Positions 1-10,078 of a stretch of DNA of 10,125 bases are shown in pieces. Both the position numbers and the translations under genes were made by a program. The notes below the pieces were generated by a model. The model had not been told where the DNA came from and ran no database searches. It saw only the letters and a list, made by a program, of their open reading frames with translations. Within the stretch, counting starts at the first letter, position 1; the number at the start of each line of letters is the position of its first letter. Origin of the DNA: a virus. Location: the UHGV virus genome UHGV-0288291. One strand, written 5' to 3'.

Positions 1-118
1 AACCGGGCGCGAAAGGTGTCGGCTCGTTGAAGGACGGCACCCACCAGTAAACATCCTCCTCCACGCCACGGCGGGTATATTTTGCCGGTGAGGTTTCCAG
101 TCTGATGATCTTACCGGT
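1..118 (-). repeat. Duplicated fragment of the portal-gene internal region (copy of 333..450)
   Basis: Read by eye, 1..118 is identical to 333..450. The minus-strand sense encodes ...TGKIIRLETSPAKYTRRGVEEDVYWWVPSFNEPTPFAPGS. The copy starts at the window edge and may extend further left. Confidence 0.7.
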
Positions 119-270
119 AACCTGTTTCTCTATGCCCCACAGGGGAAAGCCGACGGCATTAAAATTATCCCGCTCAGTGAAGTGGCGACGAAGGACGATT
201 TTTTTAATATCAAAAAAGCCAGCGCCGTTGACCTGCTGGATGCGCACCGCATCCCCTTTCAGTTGATGCT
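119..270 (+). repeat. Duplicated fragment of the portal-gene 3' region (copy of 659..810)
   Basis: 119..270 matches 659..810 with 3 mismatches (188 vs 728, 228 vs 768, 240 vs 780). It encodes NLFLYAPQGKADGIKIIPLSEVATKDDFFNIKKASA(V/A)DLLDAHRIPFQLM. Homology ends abruptly at 270/271. Confidence 0.7.
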
Positions 271-570
271 GAGATATTCCGGCAGGCCGTACAGCTCCTG
301 ATTAATATCCGGCTCCAGCAGGTGAAACACGGAACCGGGCGCGAAAGGTGTCGGCTCGTTGAAGGACGGCACCCACCAGTAAACATCCTCCTCCACGCCA
401 CGGCGGGTATATTTTGCCGGTGAGGTTTCCAGTCTGATGATCTTACCGGTGGTGCTGTAACGCTTTTCCAGAAACGCATTACCGAACACCAGAAAATCCA
501 GCACAAAGCGGCTGAAATCCTGTTGCGAAAGCCACGGATGCGGGATAAATGTCGAGGCCAGAATATTGAT
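271..570 (-). pseudogene. Q: Portal protein (gpQ-like) internal fragment, inverted relative to the 3' part of the same gene
   Basis: Clean minus-strand reading frame (part of track ORF 259..648) encoding INILASTFIPHPWLSQQDFSRFVLDFLVFGNAFLEKRYSTTGKIIRLETSPAKYTRRGVEEDVYWWVPSFNEPTPFAPGSVFHLLEPDINQELYGLPEYLS. It lies head-to-head with the plus-strand portal 3' part at about 570/571. The in-frame stop at 259-261 falls inside the adjacent duplicated segment. Confidence 0.6.
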
Positions 571-979
571 GTACGTCACCGATGCCGTGCAGGACCGCAA
601 CGATATCGAAATGCTTCGCGAAAACATGGTGAAGTCGAAAGGCCGCAATAACTTTAAAAACCTGTTTCTCTATGCCCCACAGGGGAAAGCCGACGGCATT
701 AAAATTATCCCGCTCAGTGAAGTGGCAACGAAGGACGATTTTTTTAATATCAAAAAAGCCAGCGCCGCTGACCTGCTGGACGCGCACCGCATCCCCTTTC
801 AGTTGATGGGCGGCAAGCCGGAGAACGTCGGGTCGCTGGGTGATATTGAGAAAGTGGCAAAGGTCTTTGTCCGCAATGAGCTTATCCCGCTACAGGACAG
901 GATCCGCGAGATAAACGGCTGGCTCGGTCAGGAGGTCATCCGCTTTAAAAACTACTCACTGGACACTGACAACGGCTGA
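569..979 (+). CDS. Q: Portal protein (gpQ-like) C-terminal portion, 136 codons; 5' part of the gene not colinear
   Basis: Track ORF 566..979 starts on a TTG; the first ATG is at 569. It is followed by an intrinsic terminator and then cos about 170 bp downstream, the position of Q in P2. The translation (MYVTDAVQDRNDIEMLRENMVKSKGRNNFKNLFLYAPQG...) matches my recollection of the P2 Q C-terminus; this needs alignment to confirm. Confidence 0.65.
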   Translation: MYVTDAVQDRNDIEMLRENMVKSKGRNNFKNLFLYAPQGKADGIKIIPLSEVATKDDFFNIKKASAADLLDAHRIPFQLMGGKPENVGSLGDIEKVAKVFVRNELIPLQDRIREINGWLGQEVIRFKNYSLDTDNG

Positions 980-984
980 ACATC

Positions 985-1006
985 GCCGCCTGCGGGCGGC
1001 TTTTTT
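985..1006 (+). terminator. Rho-independent terminator after the portal gene
   Basis: GCCGCC (985-990), loop TGCG, GGCGGC (995-1000), then TTTTTT (1001-1006), five bases after the stop codon at 977-979. Confidence 0.7.
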
Positions 1007-1148
1007 ACACCCCGCCATCACGCCCTCACACGCTCACCACCGCACAAAACAGCCCGCAGACACACCAACGCCCCGGCTAACAATCTAAACGCCATCACGA
1101 CGCGCTCAGACGCTGAAAAAATAAAATCAGCACCACCGCCAGCGCGCA

Positions 1149-1167
1149 GTGCTTTCCCCGCCTCGCC
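1149..1167. other. cos site: P2-type 19-nt cohesive-end sequence
   Basis: The plus strand reads GTGCTTTCCCCGCCTCGCC, the reverse complement of GGCGAGGCGGGGAAAGCAC, which I recall as the P2 cohesive end. It sits between the portal stop and the A-side variable locus, as in P2. Confidence 0.65.
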
Positions 1168-1451
1168 CGCCCGCTTCGTGGGGCGGTTTTAATGCAGTTG
1201 CATAGATACTATGGATCCGCACCAGTCCTGACCGCACGCAGCCTGAACGGACATCCCCAACGCATGCAAAAACATTCACTTGTTGCATGCATAGCTTTTT
1301 AAGTACGCCATACCGCAACTGTACATTTTTAAGCAATTGGCAACCTTAAAAAATTTACATTGCTTTCAAGACCTTATCATCCGTAGTCTCTGTTTTTTAC
1401 TTTGAGCTACATCAATAAAATCTCAAACATGTTTAATGCAAAGCCCTTGTT

Positions 1452-1505
1452 ACACAACATAGAATGTATGTCTAGAAACAACGACATACTATATGTTGTG
1501 TTTTT
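1452..1505 (+). other. Long imperfect hairpin followed by a T5 run (terminator- or attenuator-like RNA structure)
   Basis: ACACAACATA (1452-1461) pairs with TATGTTGTGT (1492-1501), and an inner TATGTC (1467-1472) pairs with GACATA (1483-1488). TTTTT follows at 1501-1505. The element is AT-rich. Confidence 0.4.
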
Positions 1506-1567
1506 CCGGCTCTCTGTTCGGTGATATGCCAAATCACTTTGCGTTTAAACAGAGCATTATTTCAGGG

Positions 1568-1582
1568 CAAGACTTCGCTCAA
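1568..1582 (+). repeat. 15-bp direct repeat CAAGACTTCGCTCAA, copy 1
   Basis: Exact 15-mer also present at 1832..1846. The two copies bracket the micro-ORF and its terminator. Confidence 0.5.
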
Positions 1583-1645
1583 AAGTCATTCCACCTAAGA
1601 AGCGCATATACCGGTGGAAGTTGCCCTCTACTTACAGGAGGCAAT

Positions 1646-1759
1646 ATGAAGAAATGCTATTACTGCATTCTCGTTCTGGCCCTCTTTGGCTATCCAAACG
1701 GTAGTCCGAGTGGTTTGTCAGTAAACGTCAGTAATATCAATGTCAGCATTATGCTTTAA
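1646..1759 (+). CDS. Hypothetical 37-aa hydrophobic peptide (MKKCYYCILVLALFGYPNGSPSGLSVNVSNINVSIML) in the cos-A variable locus
   Basis: Consensus Shine-Dalgarno AGGAGG (1636-1641) 4 nt before the ATG at 1646; a strong intrinsic terminator follows immediately. N-terminal hydrophobic stretch. Convergent with gene A. The track's 88-aa version starts inside a hairpin with no SD. Confidence 0.4.
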   Translation: MKKCYYCILVLALFGYPNGSPSGLSVNVSNINVSIML

Positions 1760-1771
1760 TATGCTTCAAAC

Positions 1772-1801
1772 AAAAAAACCACCTGCCAGGGTGGTTTTTT
1801 T
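1772..1801. terminator. Bidirectional rho-independent terminator
   Basis: AAAAAAA, ACCACC, TGCCAG, GGTGGT, TTTTTTT. The A-tract upstream and T-tract downstream let it serve both the plus-strand micro-ORF and the minus-strand A operon. Confidence 0.7.
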
Positions 1802-1831
1802 GCGCCCATCATCAATACGATGAAAGACTGA

Positions 1832-1846
1832 CAAGACTTCGCTCAA
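1832..1846 (+). repeat. 15-bp direct repeat CAAGACTTCGCTCAA, copy 2
   Basis: Exact match to 1568..1582. Confidence 0.5.
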
Positions 1847-2061
1847 GACGAATTATGCGTCGACATAAGGTTACCCGCAATGATTTTATTAGACTAAATG
1901 GATGGCCTTTTATGACCCGGATCAAACGGCTGTCCTTACCGACATGCTAGTCACTCAATAGCATTTAGCCTTCTAATTCAGCATGCTATTGACCTTCTGC
2001 TGCCCCATAACTGCTCCGCATAAGCCATTCAATGCCATATCAAATCACGTTGTGTTTTTAC

Positions 2062-4338
2062 TCAAATGGGTAACGAGAACCCCGGCCACTCATCAGCAAC
2101 CGGATACGTGAATTTTTTCCCGTCATAATTTACGGTCGCGCCACGCGCCAGCGCCTCAAGCTCCCATCGTTGCGGCCTGATACCGTTCTGAGCGAGGTCA
2201 ACGCGGATACGGGTAATTTGCAATCGTTCAGACCTGGTCAGTCTGGCAGATGGTGCAATTTCATGCGGTTTTAACGGGATTCCGTTTCTTTGCTGACGAT
2301 TTGGTGTTCTCAGTCCGTGTTTTAATGCGCCCCTGAGCGCCATCACGACCTCCGGGTCACTCCATTCGATAACACCGTCATCTACCAGATTAAGCACTGC
2401 TGCGGCGTGCTCAGAAGGTGTGGGAGCCGGTAACGAAGTATCACCACCGGTGAGCTTTCCACAGTTATTGACAGGACTCCGAGGCGCGGCGATGCCGCTT
2501 TTTAAAGTCAAAGGCTCAACGACCGGAACTTTCGGCACAATGCGCCAGTCCGTCGTTCTGGTGATATGAATATGACGCGCGCCGAGATGCGGCGCGTAAA
2601 TGCCGACCACTCTCTCGACTTCTTCCTCGTACTCGTTAACGTCATCCGACAGACTACGGGCGACCCTGACAGTCTGACAATCGCGCGGGACATTTGCCCC
2701 GCCCTGCGCGCTGATATACAGCGCAAAATCACCACTGTCTGCGGCGGCGCGTGCAGCCTCGACGCGCTCGTCAAACTCATCAGCAATGCTGACGCCGCGA
2801 GGCAATTTGCGTAGTTCACGGTAAGCCCCCATTGTCGGCAGGCCAACCGTTTTAAATTGCGGAATGCGCCACGTTGACGCCCATGCGGTAACAGCCGCTG
2901 CAGTGTCTTTCAGCGGCCTGCCGGTGTCGTTATCGAGCTGACCATCCAGTGCATAGCCGTCGATGTTTTTTGAAATGTATTTCGCGATATATCCCGCAGC
3001 ACCGCCCCGGTTAAGGTGTTTTGCCTGAAAACGGTTTCGCGCGGCTCCTCTTTCGTCGCCATCCTCTTTGAGCGCATAGCGACGCATGATTTCGATAATC
3101 TGGTTACGCTGGCGTGGATGACAAAAAAGCATCATATGCCAGTGCGGCGTTCCGTCGTGGTGTGGCTCGACGACTCGCAAACCGTAGACCTGTAAATCAT
3201 TATCCTTGAATGCCGTGCGCATCAGGCTCCAGATACGGCAGAGATAACGCTGCGCATCCTTTGGATTAAATGCCTCATCGTTCCAGCCGTGATTAAGCTG
3301 AACGGTTTTACTTTCGCCTTTTCCGACCTGACGTGTCGGGTGATACTTTGACGGCGCGGTCAGCGTGATAAACATCCCCACATCACCCTCTGCGGCGGCG
3401 TAACGCTCAATACCGGCAATGGTGTTCATCAGCTCCATCCGGCGAATTTCAGGATTAGAAATACTGCCCATCACCTTACTGATAAGGTCGATGCGCTCGC
3501 CGGTTTCCCTGTTTTCAAGGTCACACGATTTAAGAAATTCCAGATTTGCCTGGCGGCGCGCACGCACATCACGAATGGCGTGTTTACTGGCATAAGGAGA
3601 ACGGTCTTTATTGACCTCCCCGACAGCTATCAGTAACGCCTCATGCCAGCGCATACGCTGGCCTTTAAGCTGACTAATCCACCACTCATCGTTAAACAGG
3701 CGGGCAATGGCAGAATATGCCTGCCTCGTGGTCATCTGTCCTTTACGGTATTTTTTCCAGTAGAGCGGGGAAATATTGAAAGCACGTGCAGCGCCAGCAA
3801 CATGACCATACAGGTGAGCCTGCGCCTCATCCGTAAACAGCGATTCTTTTTCACCATGCGCATCAACCCATGCATCGCAGAGTTCCTCATACATCATGAA
3901 AAGCTGCGATGAGATACGGGCGGCAAACTTTTTCAGCTCCTTGTCATTCATTCCCGGCAGGCGCGCATAGTGGTCACGCTCTGCCAGAAACAGCAACGAC
4001 GCGTCGGTGTTCATTTCATGGCGCTGATTCACACGCTCAATGCGCGGCCATAAACGACGCTGAAAAGTAGATGTGAGGAAATAAAACCCGTGCACCGGGC
4101 TTTTATTGCGCCGGATGTAGTCATAGCGTGAAGTAAACAGCGAGCGCAAAAAGTAAGGCAGGCGGTTAATCGTGGATAAAACACCTTGCACCTGACGCAT
4201 CTCGTCACGTGTAAGAGGTCTTTCGCGCCCGACAGCCTCGCGTGGCGCGTTCCATGCATAAGCACCGGTAAACGCCTTACCGGTGCCTGCGGTAAATGCT
4301 GACGGAGGGACAAAACGCCCGGAGGCTTTAACGGCCAT
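2062..4338 (-). CDS. A: Rolling-circle replication initiator (P2 gpA-like HUH endonuclease)
   Basis: 758-aa product. The first ATG is at 4338; the track start at 4380 is a TTG. HUH motif HWHMM is encoded at 3130-3144. The GYIAKYIS tyrosine pair (Y-x3-Y) is encoded at 2971-3000, typical of phiX174/P2-type initiators. Its start overlaps the end of the upstream small ORF. Confidence 0.9.
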   Translation of the reverse strand: MAVKASGRFVPPSAFTAGTGKAFTGAYAWNAPREAVGRERPLTRDEMRQVQGVLSTINRLPYFLRSLFTSRYDYIRRNKSPVHGFYFLTSTFQRRLWPRIERVNQRHEMNTDASLLFLAERDHYARLPGMNDKELKKFAARISSQLFMMYEELCDAWVDAHGEKESLFTDEAQAHLYGHVAGAARAFNISPLYWKKYRKGQMTTRQAYSAIARLFNDEWWISQLKGQRMRWHEALLIAVGEVNKDRSPYASKHAIRDVRARRQANLEFLKSCDLENRETGERIDLISKVMGSISNPEIRRMELMNTIAGIERYAAAEGDVGMFITLTAPSKYHPTRQVGKGESKTVQLNHGWNDEAFNPKDAQRYLCRIWSLMRTAFKDNDLQVYGLRVVEPHHDGTPHWHMMLFCHPRQRNQIIEIMRRYALKEDGDERGAARNRFQAKHLNRGGAAGYIAKYISKNIDGYALDGQLDNDTGRPLKDTAAAVTAWASTWRIPQFKTVGLPTMGAYRELRKLPRGVSIADEFDERVEAARAAADSGDFALYISAQGGANVPRDCQTVRVARSLSDDVNEYEEEVERVVGIYAPHLGARHIHITRTTDWRIVPKVPVVEPLTLKSGIAAPRSPVNNCGKLTGGDTSLPAPTPSEHAAAVLNLVDDGVIEWSDPEVVMALRGALKHGLRTPNRQQRNGIPLKPHEIAPSARLTRSERLQITRIRVDLAQNGIRPQRWELEALARGATVNYDGKKFTYPVADEWPGFSLPI
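2468..2487 (-). promoter_or_regulatory. Candidate replication origin / A-protein nick region inside gene A
   Basis: The plus strand reads TTGACAGGACTCCGAGGCGC, the reverse complement of GCGCCTCGGAGTCCTGTCAA, which I recall as part of the P2 ori nick region located within the A coding sequence. This is recollection only and needs alignment. Confidence 0.35.
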
Positions 4339-4603
4339 ATGAGCCAAAAGCCTCTGAACAACGCTTGCTGAGTTGCTCAACCTGCGCGTTTAAATCAGCA
4401 AAAGATTTTGCGCTTCCGGTCAGAATATCGTGATGCATCAGGCCGGAAACGAGCTGGCCTAATTTCGGGTAATAACCAACCACCGCCAGCCATTCCTGAC
4501 CGGCGTTTTTACCGCTTTCCGCTCTCTTTTTCTCGTGGAGAATAAACTGAAAGCTGTCACTGGTAACGACATAACGTTTGCCAATTTCAATACGAATACT
4601 CAT
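4328..4603 (-). CDS. Hypothetical protein (P2 orf83 position), 91 aa
   Basis: ATG at 4603 overlaps the upstream stop (ATGA); SD-like GGAGAA upstream. Immediately precedes A. Confidence 0.6.
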   Translation of the reverse strand: MSIRIEIGKRYVVTSDSFQFILHEKKRAESGKNAGQEWLAVVGYYPKLGQLVSGLMHHDILTGSAKSFADLNAQVEQLSKRCSEAFGSYGR

Positions 4604-4824
4604 GCCGTTCTCCGGTAATGTTTGTTTTTTGCTTCAAAGACTGACTGACAGGAAACACAACGCGTGGCTGACGGATAAGCCGCACGACGGGCAGCAGGTA
4701 TTGGCGCGTCACACTCTTCGCAAACCAGCGCAGAAACACCGCAATGTTTTACCCTTGCCGCGTTAATCTGGCGCTCCAGTAATTCAGCCTGTTGTTCCTG
4801 AATGAAATCTACGTTGTCCGGCAT
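4600..4824 (-). CDS. Small C4 zinc-finger protein, TraR/DksA-like (P2 orf82 position), 74 aa
   Basis: CEEC...(about 20 aa)...CVSC motif. Start ATG overlaps the upstream stop (TAATG). Confidence 0.6.
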   Translation of the reverse strand: MPDNVDFIQEQQAELLERQINAARVKHCGVSALVCEECDAPIPAARRAAYPSATRCVSCQSVFEAKNKHYRRTA

Positions 4825-5126
4825 TACCAGTTCCTTTTGTCGTTCAGTTTCTTAAATTCATCAGCGCAATAGCTGGCGAGTTCTGTCGTTAATTTTGTCA
4901 GTTCATCCACTGAGGAAATTTGCCTGTGAAATACAGCGCGTTTTACAAGTAAATTGATCACATCAGACAGGAGGTTTAATTCGCTCTGATAAATCGCGAT
5001 AACAGATTCAGTTATGTCGCGCTTTTCTTTATCAAGACCAAGTTGAATAAGAGACAAATCGCCATTTTCCATAACAGCGATTTTTAAGGCGTTATTCAGT
5101 AATACAACCGAACGAGAACAGGACAT
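4824..5126 (-). CDS. Hypothetical protein (P2 orf81 position), 100 aa
   Basis: The track start at 5129 is a TTG; the first ATG is at 5126 and overlaps the upstream stop (TGATG). GGAGG lies 8 nt upstream. Confidence 0.6.
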   Translation of the reverse strand: MSCSRSVVLLNNALKIAVMENGDLSLIQLGLDKEKRDITESVIAIYQSELNLLSDVINLLVKRAVFHRQISSVDELTKLTTELASYCADEFKKLNDKRNW

Positions 5127-5350
5127 CAAAGCACCTCCCCGCGAGACAATCCGATATTGTGAAATTTTTCCGACTCCTGACTGAGCAGCTCAACTATCTC
5201 CACGCGGGATAACTCCGCCTTTGTGATGTGGCGAATCATGGCGTCAAGATGAGAAGAAAAGCGCGTCGCAGCGTCGGCCTGTGCTTCGGTTCTGGCCTGT
5301 TGCAGCAGTAATGCGTATTTACCGCACTGATTTTCAGAAACTGTATGCAT
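5126..5350 (-). CDS. Hypothetical protein (P2 orf80 position), 74 aa
   Basis: ATG at 5350 with GGAGA 7 nt upstream; its stop overlaps the next start. Confidence 0.6.
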
Positions 5351-5413
5351 GACTTTCTCCAGGCAAAAAGAAGCCCCGCACGATTAAGTGCGTTAAAAAC
5401 TCTGGTTAATTAT

Positions 5414-5914
5414 TTAATGCAGATATTGCTCTGGTTTTACCGACGTCAGAATTGTCGGTGCATACTCAAAAAGACTGAATAATTCACGTAATGCACGGAA
5501 TAAAGCATCACGCCAGTAACATGATTCTTCATTAATTCGCCAGTACGGCTGATTGAATTCTTTTTCTGTCAATCCCGCATGCATAAATAAAGTACGACGC
5601 TGACTGACTGTTAAAAAACTAATATATGCATACTCACTTGCGCCGACCTGACGGCGTTTTGAGAATGCGCCACGCAATTCATCAATTGCACAAACCAGTC
5701 GTTCACGTTCGACGTCGTTCATTTCTTCAAAACGCATCGTTGCGTGACGCTGTTTTAACTGTGCATGAAAGCAAACCGTTAGCCGTTCGCGCTCCATCAT
5801 CTGATTATAATAATCACATGTATCCTGCCAGCGAGGGACGGCAAGATGCTTGCCAATTATCCGGCGCATAGCTGCTGGCTGTTTTTCAACGAGATTGAGC
5901 GTCATCACTGTCAT
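5414..5914 (-). CDS. B: Replication protein B (P2 gpB-like helicase-loader accessory), 166 aa
   Basis: The ATG at 5914 is preferred over the track start at 5920: GGAGGG is spaced correctly for 5914, and it forms an ATGA overlap with the upstream ORF stop. Position between cox and A matches P2. Confidence 0.8.
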   Translation of the reverse strand: MTVMTLNLVEKQPAAMRRIIGKHLAVPRWQDTCDYYNQMMERERLTVCFHAQLKQRHATMRFEEMNDVERERLVCAIDELRGAFSKRRQVGASEYAYISFLTVSQRRTLFMHAGLTEKEFNQPYWRINEESCYWRDALFRALRELFSLFEYAPTILTSVKPEQYLH

Positions 5915-6081
5915 TTCCATACCCTCCGGCTTTTCAGAAAGGTCAGAGCCTTTTTTAACGGACTCTGTTTTTTGGTGCGGATAATGATTCCCTTACGCCC
6001 CTTACCGTGGGTGATGGTGAAGTCAATCGCCCTGGGGCTTTCGTTACGCAATAACTGAGCAATACAACGCGGCTCATTCAT
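5911..6081 (-). CDS. Small hypothetical protein between cox and B (P2 orf78 position), 56 aa
   Basis: The ATG at 6081 lies 2 nt after the cox stop (TGATTATG) and has a GGGG SD-like element. The track start at 6108 lies inside cox and has no SD. Confidence 0.5.
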   Translation of the reverse strand: MNEPRCIAQLLRNESPRAIDFTITHGKGRKGIIIRTKKQSPLKKALTFLKSRRVWK

Positions 6082-6083
6082 AA

Positions 6084-6371
6084 TCACAACCCCATCCACA
6101 AAAGCCATGCATCACGCTGTTCAACCGGTCGGTTATAAAACGCCTCACGTACAGCGCGATTAAACTCAGGAATGAAAACCCATTTTTCACCGGCACGAGC
6201 CTTCGGTTTGCAAGGATCACGCAATTCAATAATTGGTAATTTATTTGCCTTCACCATTTCACTGACGGCTGTCTTTGGCTTCCCTAATAAATCAGCAAAT
6301 TTATCCACATGAACCGCATCAAGCGGATACTGAATCACATAATTTTCAGCGTCCATATATGGTACCCTCAT
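6084..6371 (-). CDS. cox: Cox-like excisionase / early repressor of the lysogenic promoter
   Basis: First gene of the early operon, divergent from C. C-terminal ...RDAWLLWMGL resembles the P2 Cox C-terminus as I recall it. Alternative start at 6356 (MDAENYV..., 90 aa) has an AGGG at reasonable spacing. Confidence 0.7.
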   Translation of the reverse strand: MRVPYMDAENYVIQYPLDAVHVDKFADLLGKPKTAVSEMVKANKLPIIELRDPCKPKARAGEKWVFIPEFNRAVREAFYNRPVEQRDAWLLWMGL

Positions 6372-6492
6372 AGGATCCAGCCCTTTCTAAACCACTCAAA
6401 ACCGTTTAGATGCTGGTTTATTCTCAAATCAATGGAACCTATATAGGTTCCAGTTTTGAGGGAATTTAGTCCCTATATAGGCACCATGTCAA
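6372..6492. promoter_or_regulatory. C/cox immunity switch region with palindromic operator-like repeats
   Basis: Perfect 18-bp palindrome GGAACCTATATAGGTTCC (6434-6451); related CCCTATATAGG (6471-6481) about 34 bp away; degenerate CCCTCATAGG (6365-6374). Also an inverted pair TCAAAAC (6397-6403) / GTTTTGA (6454-6460). Confidence 0.6.
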
Positions 6493-6786
6493 ATGAAATT
6501 AAGCGAAAAGATTAAGGCCTTGCGTGAGGCTGAAGGGCTAAGCCAATCAAAATTCTGTGAAATCATAGAGTTACCGCTAAGCACACTTAAAAAATATGAA
6601 GGAGGAAACTTTGAACCCGGTGGCACAGCTTTGCTAAAAATCACTATGCATCCCACATTCCAAAAATATGCTCTATGGCTTATGACAGATAAAACCGCGC
6701 CGGACGCAGGACAAATCGCACCGGCTCTCGCGCACATTGGGCCAGAGTCAACAGAGTCCAACCACTCCGCGAAAAGGATTGGCTAA
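6493..6786 (+). CDS. C: Immunity repressor C (P2 C-like, HTH), 97 aa
   Basis: Located directly upstream of int on the same strand. ...GQIAPALAH... matches my recollection of the P2 C repressor C-terminal region. The ATG at 6486 is out of frame and hits a stop. Confidence 0.8.
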   Translation: MKLSEKIKALREAEGLSQSKFCEIIELPLSTLKKYEGGNFEPGGTALLKITMHPTFQKYALWLMTDKTAPDAGQIAPALAHIGPESTESNHSAKRIG

Positions 6787-6855
6787 CTCTATATAAAGAT
6801 TACATTTTCACCATTTGCTACCAAGATGGTGAATACAGCGCCGGAGGGCTTTCTT

Positions 6856-7836
6856 ATGGCAATTAAGAAGCTCGATGATGGTCGCTATGAAGTGGACATT
6901 AGACCTCGCGGTCGCGACGGAAAACGCATCCGCAGGAAATTCGAAAGAAAAGCTGAAGCACTAGCATTTGAGCGATACACAATCGCCAATGCCAGTCAGA
7001 AAGAATGGGGAGGCCAGCGAGCAGACCGCCGGACTTTGAGTGAGTTGCTGGACATCTGGTGGAAATATCACGGGCAAAACCACGAGCATGGAACAAAAGA
7101 GTTTAATCATCTACTCAAAACCATCAGCGGCATAGGTGATATACCAGTGAGCAGGATGAGCAAAAGGGCTTTGATGGATTATCGTTCCATGCGACTACGT
7201 GATGGTATCAGTGCCGCAACGATAAACCGTGACATGTACCGATTATCCGGCATGTTCACAAAATTAATTCAATTGGATGAATTTTCCGGGCAACACCCAA
7301 TTCACGGACTGCCGCCACTGGCGGAGGCCAACCCTGAAATGACGTTCTTGGAAAAAGCAGAAATCGAAAAACTGTTAAATGTTTTGGCTGGTGATGACTT
7401 ACTTGTCGCGCTTTTATGTCTGAGCACCGGAGGAAGATGGACGGAAGTTGCCACGCTAAAACCAGCACAGATTACAAATTGCAGGGTTACCTTCCTGAAA
7501 ACCAAAAACGGTAAAAAGCGAACCGTGCCGATTTCTGAGGAACTGGAGAAAAAAGTTAAAGAGGAGGCCAGCGCCAAATTATTCAAAGTTGATTATGAGA
7601 AATTTTGCGGGATTTTACGCAGAGTGAAACCTGATATACCACCCAATCAGGCAACCCACATCCTGCGGCATACATTCGCAAGCCATTTCATGATGAATGG
7701 GGGCAATATAATCGCACTGCAACAGATTCTGGGACATGCGAGCATTCAGCAGACGATGGCCTATGCGCACCTTGCGCCTGACTATCTGCAAAATGCCGTC
7801 GCTCTGAATCCACTAAAAGGCGGAGTGACGTTATAA
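6856..7836 (+). CDS. int: Tyrosine integrase (P2 Int-like), 326 aa
   Basis: The first ATG with an SD (GGAGGG, 6843-6848) gives MAIKKLDDGRYEVDIRP...; the track start at 6826 is upstream of this. C-terminal catalytic region HILRHTFASHF...LGHASIQQTMAYAHL carries the R/H-x-x-R/Y signature. Confidence 0.9.
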   Translation: MAIKKLDDGRYEVDIRPRGRDGKRIRRKFERKAEALAFERYTIANASQKEWGGQRADRRTLSELLDIWWKYHGQNHEHGTKEFNHLLKTISGIGDIPVSRMSKRALMDYRSMRLRDGISAATINRDMYRLSGMFTKLIQLDEFSGQHPIHGLPPLAEANPEMTFLEKAEIEKLLNVLAGDDLLVALLCLSTGGRWTEVATLKPAQITNCRVTFLKTKNGKKRTVPISEELEKKVKEEASAKLFKVDYEKFCGILRRVKPDIPPNQATHILRHTFASHFMMNGGNIIALQQILGHASIQQTMAYAHLAPDYLQNAVALNPLKGGVTL

Positions 7837-7848
7837 ATTTCCCCCTCT

Positions 7849-7873
7849 GAGTGTCCACATAGTGTCCACACTC
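7849..7873. promoter_or_regulatory. Candidate integrase arm-type binding sites (two TGTCCACA repeats, 11-bp spacing)
   Basis: GAGTGTCCACATAGTGTCCACACTC, with TGTCCACA at 7852-7859 and 7863-7870. The reverse complement TGTGGACA is what I recall as the P2 Int arm-site consensus. Confidence 0.5.
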
Positions 7874-7955
7874 AAGAAATTTTGAAACCGCTCCAAACCC
7901 TTACAGCTTTCGATAAGTACCTGTTTTTACTTTTGATTGCATGTAAGTAATTGAT

Positions 7956-7982
7956 AAAAAAAACCCCCACATCATGTGGGGG
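7956..7982 (-). terminator. Hairpin with A8 tract: terminator for leftward transcription, possibly part of the att core
   Basis: AAAAAAAA (7956-7963), CCCCCAC (7964-7970), loop ATCAT, GTGGGGG (7976-7982). The T-tract follows the stem only on the minus strand. Confidence 0.45.
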
Positions 7983-8046
7983 AAGACAGGGATGGTGTCA
8001 CAAAAATGCACCTAACCTGATGATATAAATGGATTTATATCAAACA

Positions 8047-8161: not shown

Positions 8162-8563
8162 ATGGCAACTCTTAAATCAGTGATGGCAATAGCCACCTTA
8201 ATAATTTCACTCAACGCAAACGCGAATGATATTAAAACCCTTCAAAAGCAGCTTAAACCATGGCAACCCCTAGAAATCACGAATAAAAACAACTCGCTTA
8301 CGGTGGTGCTTCCTGGCAAAGAAATCTCTCCTGACGCCTACAACAACCTGATTATGACTGGTGTATGCGCACCAGTCTGGACAAAAGACACGCCTGTTTC
8401 ATATCTCAAAAAAATCAAAGAAATAAGCATAGTTAATCAATATAAATCCATCGGTTATGTTTTTTCCGAACCATTAAAAACATGCAATGAAATAGGTTCG
8501 TTGACGCCTAAACAGGGGCAAGTGTTACTTTCATCCCAAACACGTCTTTACACAGGGAAATAA
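8162..8563 (+). CDS. Hypothetical secreted/periplasmic protein, 133 aa; AT-rich moron between int and ogr
   Basis: SD AAGGA 7 nt before the ATG. N-terminal Sec-type signal peptide MATLKSVMAIATLIISLNANA with an AxA-like cleavage motif and no lipobox Cys. Mature part is K/N/S/T-rich with two Cys. GC is visibly lower than the flanking phage genes. Terminators on both sides. Confidence 0.7.
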   Translation: MATLKSVMAIATLIISLNANANDIKTLQKQLKPWQPLEITNKNNSLTVVLPGKEISPDAYNNLIMTGVCAPVWTKDTPVSYLKKIKEISIVNQYKSIGYVFSEPLKTCNEIGSLTPKQGQVLLSSQTRLYTGK

Positions 8564-8914: not shown

Positions 8915-10078
8915 TCACTCATCATCTTCTGTTTCGTACTCCACATCAGAAAGCCTGACCTCAAGCTCCAGGGACGTCGTGAAGCCGCTATTATTCAGAA
9001 AATGTGTCACCTTAGTGATTGTCCAGTCCTGCTCGTCTATGACGCGCTTAAAGCCTGACACTTTAACCGGTGTTTCCGTGTAAATATCTGCCCGACCGGT
9101 AGCCAGGCTGATGGAGAACTCCGCAACGCCCCGTTGCAGTTTATCCCACTTCGCCTGAGCGGCGCGCATGGCCTGCGCTTTCGTGGCATATACCGTGGTC
9201 AGGGCAAAAACATTGTCAGCCTCACCGGCCATATATTCACCTTCGCGCGCTTCCGGTACTTTTGGCGCTTTCTTCTGCCTGACCGGTTTCGCTTTTGGGT
9301 GCTCCAGTGCGCGCAGGTGTTTTTCTTTCTTTTTGCGTTTCAGTTTTATCTTCTGCTTTTGCGGCTTCGGGTCTTTGGTGTGAAGCCACTTTGCCGTTAC
9401 GCCGGTATAGGCTCCACGGTCAGCAATCGCAAAATGATGACGGTCGCCGTCGCTGCGGGTGATGGTAATCTGCGGGATTTTTTTACCGCTGGCCGTCACC
9501 CCCTGCCCCGCTTTGAGAAACAACAGTTTTCCCATTTTTACCGACACCTCACCGCCGTTGCGTTCAGCAAGGCGGGTCAGGAATTTTGCATCAGACTCCT
9601 GCGACTGGTCGATGTGCGGGATTTTAATTCCGGCCAGTGACGGAGCGACACTGGCTTCCAGCCTGTTACGGGAGGCTATCGCCTCAACAATCGCACCGAG
9701 CGTGGTGTCATGCCAGGAGCCTTCACGGCGGGAATTGAGCGTCCCGCGAAAATCTGCACTCCGGGCGCGGATGGTGACCACATCCGGTGCGCCCCGGTGT
9801 TCAACCTCATCAACGGTAAATTTCCCTTTGCATACCAGAGCAAAACCTTTCCAGCCTATATACACCGTCAGGACAGCGCCACGAACCGGCAGCCCGACCT
9901 GCCCGTCGGCATCGTTCAGTTCAATATCAAGCTGGTCAGCCTCAAAGCCCCGGTTATCCGTCAGGGTCATGCTCATCAGACGGTCGCTGATATTGCCGGT
10001 AATATCCCTGCTGTCGAGCATCAGCATGTAATCCGGCGTCAGCGTACTGCCTGCATCAAATGTCAGCGCATCCAGCAT
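8915..10078 (-). CDS. D: Phage tail protein D (P2 gpD-like), 387 aa
   Basis: Same strand and immediately upstream of ogr, as in P2. Length matches P2 gpD. Start ATG overlaps the upstream stop (TAATG). Confidence 0.85.
   Translation of the reverse strand: MLDALTFDAGSTLTPDYMLMLDSRDITGNISDRLMSMTLTDNRGFEADQLDIELNDADGQVGLPVRGAVLTVYIGWKGFALVCKGKFTVDEVEHRGAPDVVTIRARSADFRGTLNSRREGSWHDTTLGAIVEAIASRNRLEASVAPSLAGIKIPHIDQSQESDAKFLTRLAERNGGEVSVKMGKLLFLKAGQGVTASGKKIPQITITRSDGDRHHFAIADRGAYTGVTAKWLHTKDPKPQKQKIKLKRKKKEKHLRALEHPKAKPVRQKKAPKVPEAREGEYMAGEADNVFALTTVYATKAQAMRAAQAKWDKLQRGVAEFSISLATGRADIYTETPVKVSGFKRVIDEQDWTITKVTHFLNNSGFTTSLELEVRLSDVEYETEDDE

What the first reader, a model, noticed from the sequence alone, without database searches (positions are those of the whole stretch)
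1..979. Portal gene broken into inverted and duplicated pieces with three junctions
The portal 3' part (569-979, plus strand) is intact up to its terminator and cos. Immediately upstream, 271-570 encodes an internal portal segment on the opposite strand, head-to-head with the 3' part. Further left, 119-270 is a near copy of 659-810 (3 mismatches in 152 bp: 2 synonymous, 1 Ala/Val) and 1-118 is an exact copy of 333-450. Junctions fall at 118/119, 270/271 and about 570/571. From my recollection of P2 Q, a linker of roughly 28 codons between ...PEYLS and MYVTDAV... appears to be missing. As written, no intact portal can be made. Either this is a genuinely rearranged, packaging-defective element, or it is a chimeric assembly (fold-back or amplification chimera, or a collapsed repeat). 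The 3 substitutions between copies argue against a simple duplicated-read artifact.
Basis: partly seen in the sequence, partly recalled or inferred. Interest (0 to 1): 0.65.

Follow-up and report, generated by a model that had tools for sequence, protein, structure and literature searches.

The report
Scrambled portal fragments, probable assembly chimera
The first ~700 bases of this P2-like phage sequence are shuffled, partly inverted pieces of the portal gene that all come from a second, different P2-like phage, so this is most likely a chimeric contig end and not a biologically rearranged gene.

Summary
Window 1-118 is an exact copy of 333-450. Window 119-268 copies 659-808 with 3 differences. 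Window 269-568 is portal sequence on the opposite strand, and 84 nt (28 codons) of the portal are missing.

The new result is that every block in 1-726 is 100% identical to one natural portal allele, that of E. coli ATCC 11775 and APEC O1. From about 680-726 onward the window is 99.8% identical to a different prophage, in NZ_OZ040973.1. So the three "substitutions" between the copies are allele differences between two phages, not mutations.

The three junctions are blunt (0, 1 and 0 nt of microhomology). Two blocks are exactly 150 and 300 nt long. None of the junctions occurs in any public collection searched. The rest of the window is an ordinary P2-like genome in the excised, circular form (cos and attP intact), and every relative examined that carries either allele has an intact portal.

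The best explanation is a technical chimera that mixes two co-occurring P2-like phages at a contig end (confidence about 0.7). A genuine complex rearrangement (inversion, tandem duplication, deletion, then a crossover) is formally possible (about 0.2). Interest is low.

The parts
1..118 (-). Block A': antisense copy of portal nt 358-475. It is an exact duplicate of window 333-450 and carries the type II allele (ATCC 11775 / APEC O1).
   Evidence: 100% direct repeat, spacing 332. (0 mismatches to L029/L030, 4-8 mismatches to six other alleles).
119..268 (+). Block B': sense portal nt 715-864, exactly 150 nt, type II allele. It is a near-copy of window 659-808.
   Evidence: (100% matches in natural E. 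coli prophages). (0 mismatches to L029/L030; the 3 differences from 659-808 are at nt 783, 824 and 837).
269..568 (-). Block C: antisense portal nt 240-539, exactly 300 nt, type II allele.
   Evidence: 0 mismatches to L029/L030, 5-14 to others. (100% match in about 29 complete E. coli genomes, all annotated as portal protein). (PF04860 profile positions 45-130).
569..726 (+). Sense portal nt 625-782, still 100% type II allele. The switch to the main phage allele lies somewhere in 680-726, a stretch identical in both alleles.
   Evidence: L029 has 0 mismatches up to window 726. L003 has 5 mismatches in 569-679 and none in 680-1009.
727..979 (+). Portal 3' end (nt 783-1035) of the main phage allele (L003/L001-like, not type II), ending at the natural stop codon.
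   Evidence: 9 mismatches to L029 in this stretch, 0 to L003 in nt 865-1035. (PHROG 68 positions 209-343 of 344 for 569-976).
118..119 (.). Junction J1: antisense nt 358 joined to sense nt 715, with 0 nt microhomology.
   Evidence: The junction 32-mer is absent from viral contigs and metagenome contigs.
268..269 (.). Junction J2: sense nt 864 joined to antisense nt 539/540, with 1 nt microhomology.
   Evidence: The junction 32-mer is absent from genome contigs and viral contigs.
568..569 (.). Junction J3: antisense nt 240 joined to sense nt 625, with 0 nt microhomology. Portal nt 541-624 are missing from the window.
   Evidence: The junction 31-mer is absent from viral contigs, genome contigs and metagenome contigs.
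985..1006 (+). Rho-independent terminator of the P-Q operon (tQ).
   Evidence: 6 G-C pairs, then TTTTTT. (tQ annotated at the corresponding place in P2 NC_001895).
1149..1167 (-). cos, the 19-nt cohesive end.
   Evidence: exact reverse complement of annotated cosL of NC_001895.1. (linear phage records OQ383618.1 and MT239398.1 begin at window 1149).

Best explanation
Window 1-~700 is a technical chimera at the end of an otherwise normal P2-like (Peduovirus) genome that was assembled in its excised, circular form.

The sequenced sample held two P2-like phages. The main one is 99.8% identical to the cpxP/fieF-site prophage of E. coli NZ_OZ040973.1. The second carries the portal allele of E. coli ATCC 11775 and APEC O1, which I call 'type II'.

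The main contig runs leftward into the portal gene and crosses into the second allele inside a stretch that is identical in both (47-77 nt). It then continues through three blunt, non-biological joins of short type II pieces, 150 and 300 nt long. All these pieces come from a 625-bp neighbourhood of that crossing point.

What is shown: the two-allele composition, the blunt junctions, the block lengths, and the absence of the junctions elsewhere. What is inferred: that the joins arose during library preparation, assembly or scaffolding and not in a cell. Which of those steps made them cannot be told from the sequence.
For: (1) Blocks 1-118, 119-268, 269-568 and 569-726 are each 100% identical to L029/L030. 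They differ from six to fourteen other natural alleles at 1.5-4.5%.

(2) From 680 to 7999 the window has only 13 mismatches to L003, against 5 in 569-679. Window 7953-10125 matches the other end of the same prophage (L023) at 99.86%. The main phage is therefore a different, coherent genome.

(3) No complete E. coli genome matches 569-1140 better than 99.0%. This fits that stretch being a hybrid of two alleles.

(4) Microhomology at the junctions is 0, 1 and 0 nt.

(5) Blocks B' and C are exactly 150 and 300 nt, which are read-length-like multiples. I estimate the chance of two such lengths at about 1e-3 to 1e-4.

(6) None of the three junction 31-32-mers occurs in IMG/VR, GTDB representative genomes or JGI metagenomes. 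No record in INPHARED phages or 5,426 complete E. coli genomes covers 1-1300 in one piece, and no PLSDB plasmid covers more than 66% of the window. The junction-spanning ORF is not on record.

(7) The relatives inspected at annotation or sequence level carry an intact 344-aa portal: L029 and L030 for type II (and the hits all lie under an annotated portal protein), and L003 for the main allele.

(8) The window has cos joined and int-attP-ogr-D contiguous, the arrangement of free phage genomes. A propagating phage of that kind needs a working portal.
Against: No reads are available, so the joins cannot be shown to lack read support.

I could not find the source record, and I do not know whether window position 1 is a contig end.

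The structure decomposes neatly into three standard rearrangements: an inversion, a 540-nt tandem duplication and a 208-nt deletion. A random artefact need not decompose that way.

A de Bruijn graph cannot cross a blunt junction without chimeric reads, and scaffolders usually leave Ns. No single named artefact mechanism explains every detail.

MDA template switching, the best-known source of local inverted chimeras, usually leaves at least 2 nt of complementarity (93.5% of proximal inverted chimeras, PMC1855051). Here 3 of 3 junctions have less than 2 nt.
Confidence: 0.7

Rival explanations
1. This is a genuine complex rearrangement in a defective hybrid element. A type II portal gene suffered three events: an inversion with its right breakpoint at nt 624/625 (J3), a 540-nt tandem duplication (J2), and a 208-nt deletion in the first copy (J1). 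These could be sequential or one multi-step template-switching event. The element then recombined with the main phage inside the 47-77-nt stretch the two alleles share. The result cannot make a portal and would depend on a helper for packaging.
For: This decomposition reproduces both repeat spacings exactly, 332 and 540 (inference). All sequence in 1-979 is accounted for by portal DNA, with no filler or adaptor bases. P2-like prophages in E. coli are often degraded: several independent remnants keep only the portal 3' end plus cos, and four of them break 9-12 nt from J3. Many E. coli genomes carry two or more P2-like elements that could recombine (median 2 places per genome).
Against: It needs four events within 700 bp without a single point mutation. 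All blocks are 100% identical to the donor allele, and 1-118 equals 333-450 exactly. Blunt joins are unusual for E. coli illegitimate recombination; the real remnants examined show 2-4 nt of microhomology. Block lengths of exactly 150 and 300 nt have no biological reason. No relative in any collection shares a junction. The rest of the element is an intact-looking phage genome in circular form at 99.8% identity to a prophage with a normal portal.
Confidence: 0.2
2. This is a library-level chimeric molecule made by strand-displacement amplification (phi29 MDA) or a similar in-vitro template switch. The polymerase zig-zagged across portal nt 240-864 of the second phage, and the product was assembled as if it were genomic.
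For: All three joins are strand switches between segments only 324-385 nt apart. This is the 'inverted with intervening deletion, proximal' class that makes up 85% of MDA chimeras (PMC1855051). Viromes are often MDA-amplified (my own knowledge).
Against: In PMC1855051, 93.5% of proximal inverted chimeras show at least 2 nt of complementarity at the junction. Here the values are 0, 1 and 0 nt, which has a probability of roughly 3e-4 under that figure. Template switching does not explain the 150- and 300-nt block lengths. There is no evidence that the sample was amplified.
Confidence: 0.07
3. This is a programmed or regulated DNA inversion of a portal segment, that is, a site-specific invertase switch.
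For: Some P2-like relatives encode a Hin/Gin-type invertase near the tail-fibre genes. One remnant (L007) joins a truncated invertase gene to the portal at nt 556.
Against: No inverted repeats flank the inverted block (0 inverted pairs). There is no invertase in the window. The inverted block is accompanied by loss of 84 nt and by duplications, which a conservative invertase does not produce. The arrangement is seen nowhere else.
Confidence: 0.01

Closest known systems
Bacteriophage P2 gene Q (portal, gpQ; Pfam PF04860, PHROG 68) with the tQ terminator and cos
   Same: Window 569-1167 is colinear with the left-terminal 599 nt of P2, at 95% identity. That stretch covers Q codons 209-344, tQ and cosL. 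All of 1-568 is also Q sequence.
   Different: Q is not colinear in the window. Two blocks are antisense, two are duplicated, and codons 181-208 are absent. Codons 1-79 are also missing from the window.
Strain-mixing (inter-genomic) assembly chimeras, where a contig crosses between two co-assembled close relatives inside a shared identical stretch
   Same: Two coherent natural alleles are joined inside a 47-77-nt stretch that is identical in both.
   Different: A simple strain switch is colinear. Here there are also three blunt joins with strand changes.
MDA (phi29) inverted chimeras (Lasken & Stockwell 2007, PMC1855051)
   Same: The joins are local strand switches with a jump of a few hundred nt, the commonest MDA chimera geometry.
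   Different: The junctions lack the 2-21 nt of complementarity typical of proximal MDA chimeras. There are three junctions in one 570-nt stretch, and the block lengths are round.
Degraded P2-like prophage remnants in E. coli that keep Q', cos and the early region (L005, L007, L009, L010, L012-L014)
   Same: They retain the same 136-aa portal C-terminal reading frame, the terminator and cos.
   Different: The remnants are simple deletions that fuse a late gene to Q, with 2-4 nt of microhomology, and they sit integrated in chromosomes. The window has inverted and duplicated Q pieces from a second allele and is in the attP (excised) configuration.

Membership tests
P2-type portal protein gene (gpQ; PF04860 / PHROG 68) | Sequence homology to gpQ | tested here: met
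   95-100% nucleotide identity of every block to annotated portal genes. PHROG 68 E = 3e-62.
P2-type portal protein gene (gpQ; PF04860 / PHROG 68) | One uninterrupted ORF of about 344 codons, colinear with the family profile | tested here: not met
   Only codons 209-344 are colinear. Codons 81-180 are on the opposite strand and codons 181-208 are missing. Fragment scores are 19.6 and 15.7 bits, below the Pfam cut-off of 39.1, whereas intact L029 scores 50.8.
P2-type portal protein gene (gpQ; PF04860 / PHROG 68) | Position: 3' end followed by tQ and cos, 5' end abutting the terminase gene P | tested here: inconclusive
   tQ and cos are present at the expected distance. The P side lies outside the window.
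Two-genome assembly chimera | Adjacent segments each identical to a different natural genome, with the switch inside a shared identical stretch | tested here: met
   1-726 is 100% L029/L030. From 680 onward the window is 99.8% L003. The overlap is 680-726.
Two-genome assembly chimera | Junctions lack support from reads or independent assemblies | tested here: inconclusive
   The junctions are absent from all six collections searched. The raw reads of the source are not available.
MDA inverted chimera | Proximal segments joined in inverted orientation | tested here: met
   Three strand switches with jumps of 357, 324 and 385 nt.
MDA inverted chimera | At least 2 nt of complementarity at the junction (93.5% of proximal inverted cases, PMC1855051) | tested here: not met
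   0, 1 and 0 nt.
MDA inverted chimera | The sample was amplified with phi29 | not testable with these tools
   The source record was not found.
Site-specific invertible segment (Hin/Gin/Cin type) | Inverted-repeat recombination sites flanking the segment | tested here: not met
   No inverted repeats in 1-2000.
Site-specific invertible segment (Hin/Gin/Cin type) | A cognate invertase gene nearby | tested here: not met
   None of the window's large ORFs is invertase-like. The ORFs correspond one-to-one to the annotated genes of the 99.8%-identical prophage: A, two DUF5405 genes, TraR/DksA, DUF2732, B, cox, C and int, plus the phrog_3807 gene, ogr and D.
Replication template-switch rearrangement in vivo (FoSTeS/MMBIR-like) | Several local junctions including inverted and duplicated segments | tested here: met
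   Three junctions within 570 nt.
Replication template-switch rearrangement in vivo (FoSTeS/MMBIR-like) | Microhomology at the junctions | tested here: not met
   0, 1 and 0 nt.

The most novel reading that the evidence does not exclude
The scramble is real. In this reading, a P2-like element's portal gene underwent a single multi-step template-switching event (inversion, duplication and deletion) next to a fragile site at portal nt 613-625, and then recombined with a second P2-like phage. The product is a portal-less element that keeps cos, replication, integration and ogr, and can spread only by using a helper's capsids. Four independent E. coli prophage remnants also break at nt 613-616.
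Probability: 0.1. Interest if true: 0.4.

Novelty: not a real feature. Interest (0 to 1): 0.1.

Why it matters
If the chimera reading is correct, the value is practical. The first ~700 bases of this contig should be trimmed and the portal should not be annotated as disrupted. An inference of a 'defective phage' drawn from it would be wrong.

The case also shows that a few substitutions between duplicated blocks are not evidence of age or authenticity. Checking each block against natural alleles can reveal a second template.

If the rearrangement were real, it would be one more degraded P2-like element, of modest interest.

Tried and rejected
(1) I tried to locate the source record. I made exact look-ups of the junction-spanning ORF in two start variants and of the A protein in two start variants. 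None is on record. BLAST of the window against phages, plasmids and complete E. coli genomes found no identical record.

(2) I searched for each junction as an exact 31-32-mer in IMG/VR, GTDB genomes and JGI metagenomes. There were no hits.

(3) I considered that the 3 differences between the copies are sequencing errors or post-duplication mutations. This is rejected, because the variant copy is 100% identical to a natural allele.

(4) I considered that 569-979 is one natural allele. This is unsupported: the best natural match is 99.0%.

(5) Programmed inversion is rejected, because there are no inverted repeats and no invertase.

(6) MDA template switching is disfavoured by the junction microhomology.

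(7) I asked whether a deletion hot-spot in Q could make J3 biological. Four independent remnants break at nt 613-616. That sample was ascertained through the 136-aa product. The site is not J3. An IMG/VR sample of 119 portals showed no such break. Divergent lineages show that Met209 is simply the first available start codon.

(8) I tried to relate the 118-nt length of block A' to a k-mer size (k-1 for k = 119). It does not match the conventions of common assemblers that I recall, so I dropped it.

(9) The Rfam scan of the whole window found nothing.

Full report
**What the window is.** The window is a P2-like (Peduovirus) genome segment. In order it carries:
- the portal (Q) 3' end;
- the tQ terminator hairpin at 985-1000 (annotated tQ in P2);
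- cos at 1149-1167, an exact reverse complement of P2's annotated 19-nt cosL;
- an AT-rich stretch of about 860 nt with no credible gene;
- replication gene A (2062-4338, minus strand) and the early genes through cox, C and int (6826-7836);
- a 133-aa gene of unknown function, then ogr and D on the minus strand.

Window 680-7999 has 13 mismatches to a prophage at the cpxP/fieF site of E. coli NZ_OZ040973.1 (locus L003). Window 7953-10125 matches the opposite end of that same prophage (L023) at 99.86%. The two matches overlap by 47 nt (7953-7999), which is the att core. With cos joined and int-attP-ogr-D contiguous, this is the excised, circular arrangement seen in free phage records. It is not a prophage-host junction.

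**Checking the observation.** The repeats are real. Window 1-118 equals 333-450 exactly, and 119-268 equals 659-808 with 3 mismatches. I mapped the window onto intact portal genes:
- A' (1-118) is the antisense of portal nt 475->358;
- B' (119-268) is sense nt 715-864;
- C (269-568) is the antisense of nt 539->240;
- from 569 the sequence is sense nt 625->1035.

Portal nt 541-624 (28 codons) are absent. The three differences between the copies are two synonymous changes and one Ala->Val. The fragments hit the matching parts of the portal profiles.

**The key new result: two templates.** B' is 100% identical to a natural portal allele found in E. coli ATCC 11775, APEC O1 and others; 41 complete-genome records are at or above 99%. 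When I compared each block with 16 natural alleles, A', B', C and window 569-726 all had zero mismatches to that one allele (L029/L030, 'type II'). They had 4-14 mismatches to every other allele.

From portal nt 783 (window 727) onward the window is not type II. It has 9 mismatches to type II in the rest of the gene, and it matches the L003/L001 type.

Relative to L003, the window has 5 mismatches in 569-679 and none in 680-1009. The switch therefore lies in 680-726, a stretch that is identical in both alleles. It would be 77 nt long if the main allele is L001-like there.

No complete E. coli genome matches 569-1140 better than 99.0%, as expected for a hybrid. So the three 'substitutions' between the copies are allele differences between two phages. 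Everything left of about 700 comes from a second P2-like phage.

**The junctions.** With L029 as the parent for all blocks, microhomology is 0, 1 and 0 nt. No filler or adaptor bases are present, because portal sequence accounts for every base. Each junction is a strand switch with a jump back of 357, 324 or 385 nt. All pieces come from portal nt 240-864. Blocks B' and C are exactly 150 and 300 nt long.

**Is the arrangement seen anywhere else?** It is not.
- The three junction 31-32-mers are absent from IMG/VR, from one genome per GTDB species and from JGI metagenomes.
- No record among 50,697 phages or 5,426 complete E. coli genomes covers 1-1300 in one piece, and no PLSDB plasmid covers more than 66% of the window.
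- The junction-spanning ORF is not on record in the 153-billion-gene index.
- The window's own A protein is not on record either, so the source itself is outside these collections.
- The relatives inspected for either allele have an intact 344-aa portal, and the hits all lie under an annotated portal protein.

**Interpretation.** A technical chimera best fits these facts:
- two coherent natural alleles are joined inside a shared identical stretch;
- the joins are blunt;
- two block lengths look like read lengths;
- the arrangement is a singleton;
- the phage is otherwise intact and in the free-genome arrangement, which needs a portal.

I cannot name the exact step that made it. MDA template switching has the right geometry: 85% of MDA chimeras are inverted, and they are mostly proximal. 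But 93.5% of proximal inverted MDA chimeras carry at least 2 nt of complementarity (PMC1855051), and none of the three junctions here does. Random blunt ligation would not draw all pieces from one 625-bp neighbourhood. Pure de Bruijn traversal cannot cross blunt joins.

One process that predicts the locality, the orientation errors, the 150- and 300-nt units and the blunt abutments is this: read-length mini-contigs of a low-depth second allele are placed at the main contig's end by pair links and then joined without gaps. This is inference only.

One numerical note is speculative. The reference prophage gives a circular genome of about 29,575 nt (coordinates). Three windows of 10,125 nt make 30,375 nt, which is about one genome plus the ~700-nt foreign stretch plus a short terminal overlap. 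This would fit the window being the start of a whole-genome contig, but I do not know how windows were cut.

**The rival: a real rearrangement.** The structure can be written as three standard events:
- an inversion whose right end is J3;
- a 540-nt tandem duplication whose novel joint is J2, which explains the B'-B spacing of 540;
- a 208-nt deletion in the first copy, J1, which explains the A'-A spacing of 332.

A homologous crossover to the main phage would follow. This is coherent, and it is why I leave it at about 0.2. It requires four events in 700 bp with no accompanying point change. It also requires blunt joins, whereas real P2 remnants show 2-4 nt of microhomology, and it treats the round block lengths as coincidence. 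It has no outside support.

**Side observation.** I looked up the 136-aa product of 569-979 and found it called as a separate gene in 261 blocks of the collection. In three of the contigs shown, the prophage is otherwise intact:
- the W186 codon is TAG in L006, inside a CCTGG Dcm site;
- the same codon is TGA in L011;
- L008 has a frameshift.

In seven of the contigs shown, Q is truncated by a deletion. Four independent events all join at portal nt 613-616, within GGA TAC|ATC ATG, with 3-4 nt of microhomology. These are L005, L010/L014, L012 and L013. They have different left partners, different integration sites and different Q' alleles.

Any break in nt 481-624 could yield the same product. 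On that basis, four of six events falling in a 4-nt bin has a chance probability of about 1e-3. The sample was nevertheless ascertained through gene calls. A sample of 119 IMG/VR portals showed no such break. In divergent lineages the equivalent short products arise from assorted upstream lesions. J3 of the window (nt 624/625) lies 9-12 nt from this site and is not the same junction. I record this as unexplained.

**Verdict.** The most likely answer is a two-phage chimeric contig end, which is not a real feature, so interest is low.

Noticed in passing
Loci L005 (~9990), L010 and L014 (~9985), L012 (~9995), L013 (~9983). Equivalent to window ~557-560 (portal nt 613-616).: Four independent E. 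coli P2-like prophage remnants have a deletion joining a late gene to the portal at the same 4-nt site, GGA TAC|ATC ATG, with 3-4 nt of microhomology. The late-gene partners are the sheath gene at two positions, the V/W region, and ogr. Two other remnants break at nt 517 and 556. The sample was ascertained through the 136-aa product. The chance probability is about 1e-3, and I found no mechanism.
   Followed up: partly
L006 and L011, locus position ~9932-9934 (portal codon 186): In otherwise full-length prophages, the Trp186 codon TGG is TAG in L006 and TGA in L011. The TAG change sits inside a CCTGG Dcm site, a classic deamination hot-spot context. So two different stop codons occur at one codon. 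L008 instead has a frameshift.
   Followed up: no
window 7953-7999: A 47-nt stretch is shared by the attL-side and attR-side matches to the cpxP/fieF-site prophage of NZ_OZ040973.1. This is the att core, so the window is in the attP (excised or circular, or tandem) configuration. It contains AAAAAAAACCCCCACATCATGTGGGGG, a hairpin-like element.
   Followed up: partly
window 8162-8563 (+): A 133-aa ORF with a signal-peptide-like N-terminus lies between attP and ogr. It matches phrog_3807 (unknown function, E = 3e-56) and has no Pfam family on record in the collection's precomputed hits. The exact protein is present in about 2,006 blocks of the collection, always next to ogr at the prophage end. 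It looks like a moron gene.
   Followed up: partly
window ~1200-2061: An AT-rich stretch of about 860 nt (GC 0.34-0.45 against about 0.55 on either side) lies between cos and gene A. It has no credible ORF, no Rfam hit and no annotated gene in the 99.8%-identical prophage. Other P2-like phages carry anti-phage cargo at this position (SIR2, GmrSD, HEPN, AAA ATPases, methylases in L005-L014).
   Followed up: no
window 3674-3677: Three of the 13 mismatches to the closest prophage (L003) cluster within 4 nt inside gene A. The window's A protein is not on record anywhere in the protein-gene index.
   Followed up: no
L153 and L154, locus position 1-3: Two unrelated metagenome or Logan contigs of a divergent P2-like phage end 1-2 nt before the Met209 codon of the portal. 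This is most simply an ascertainment effect of the exact-product look-up.
   Followed up: partly
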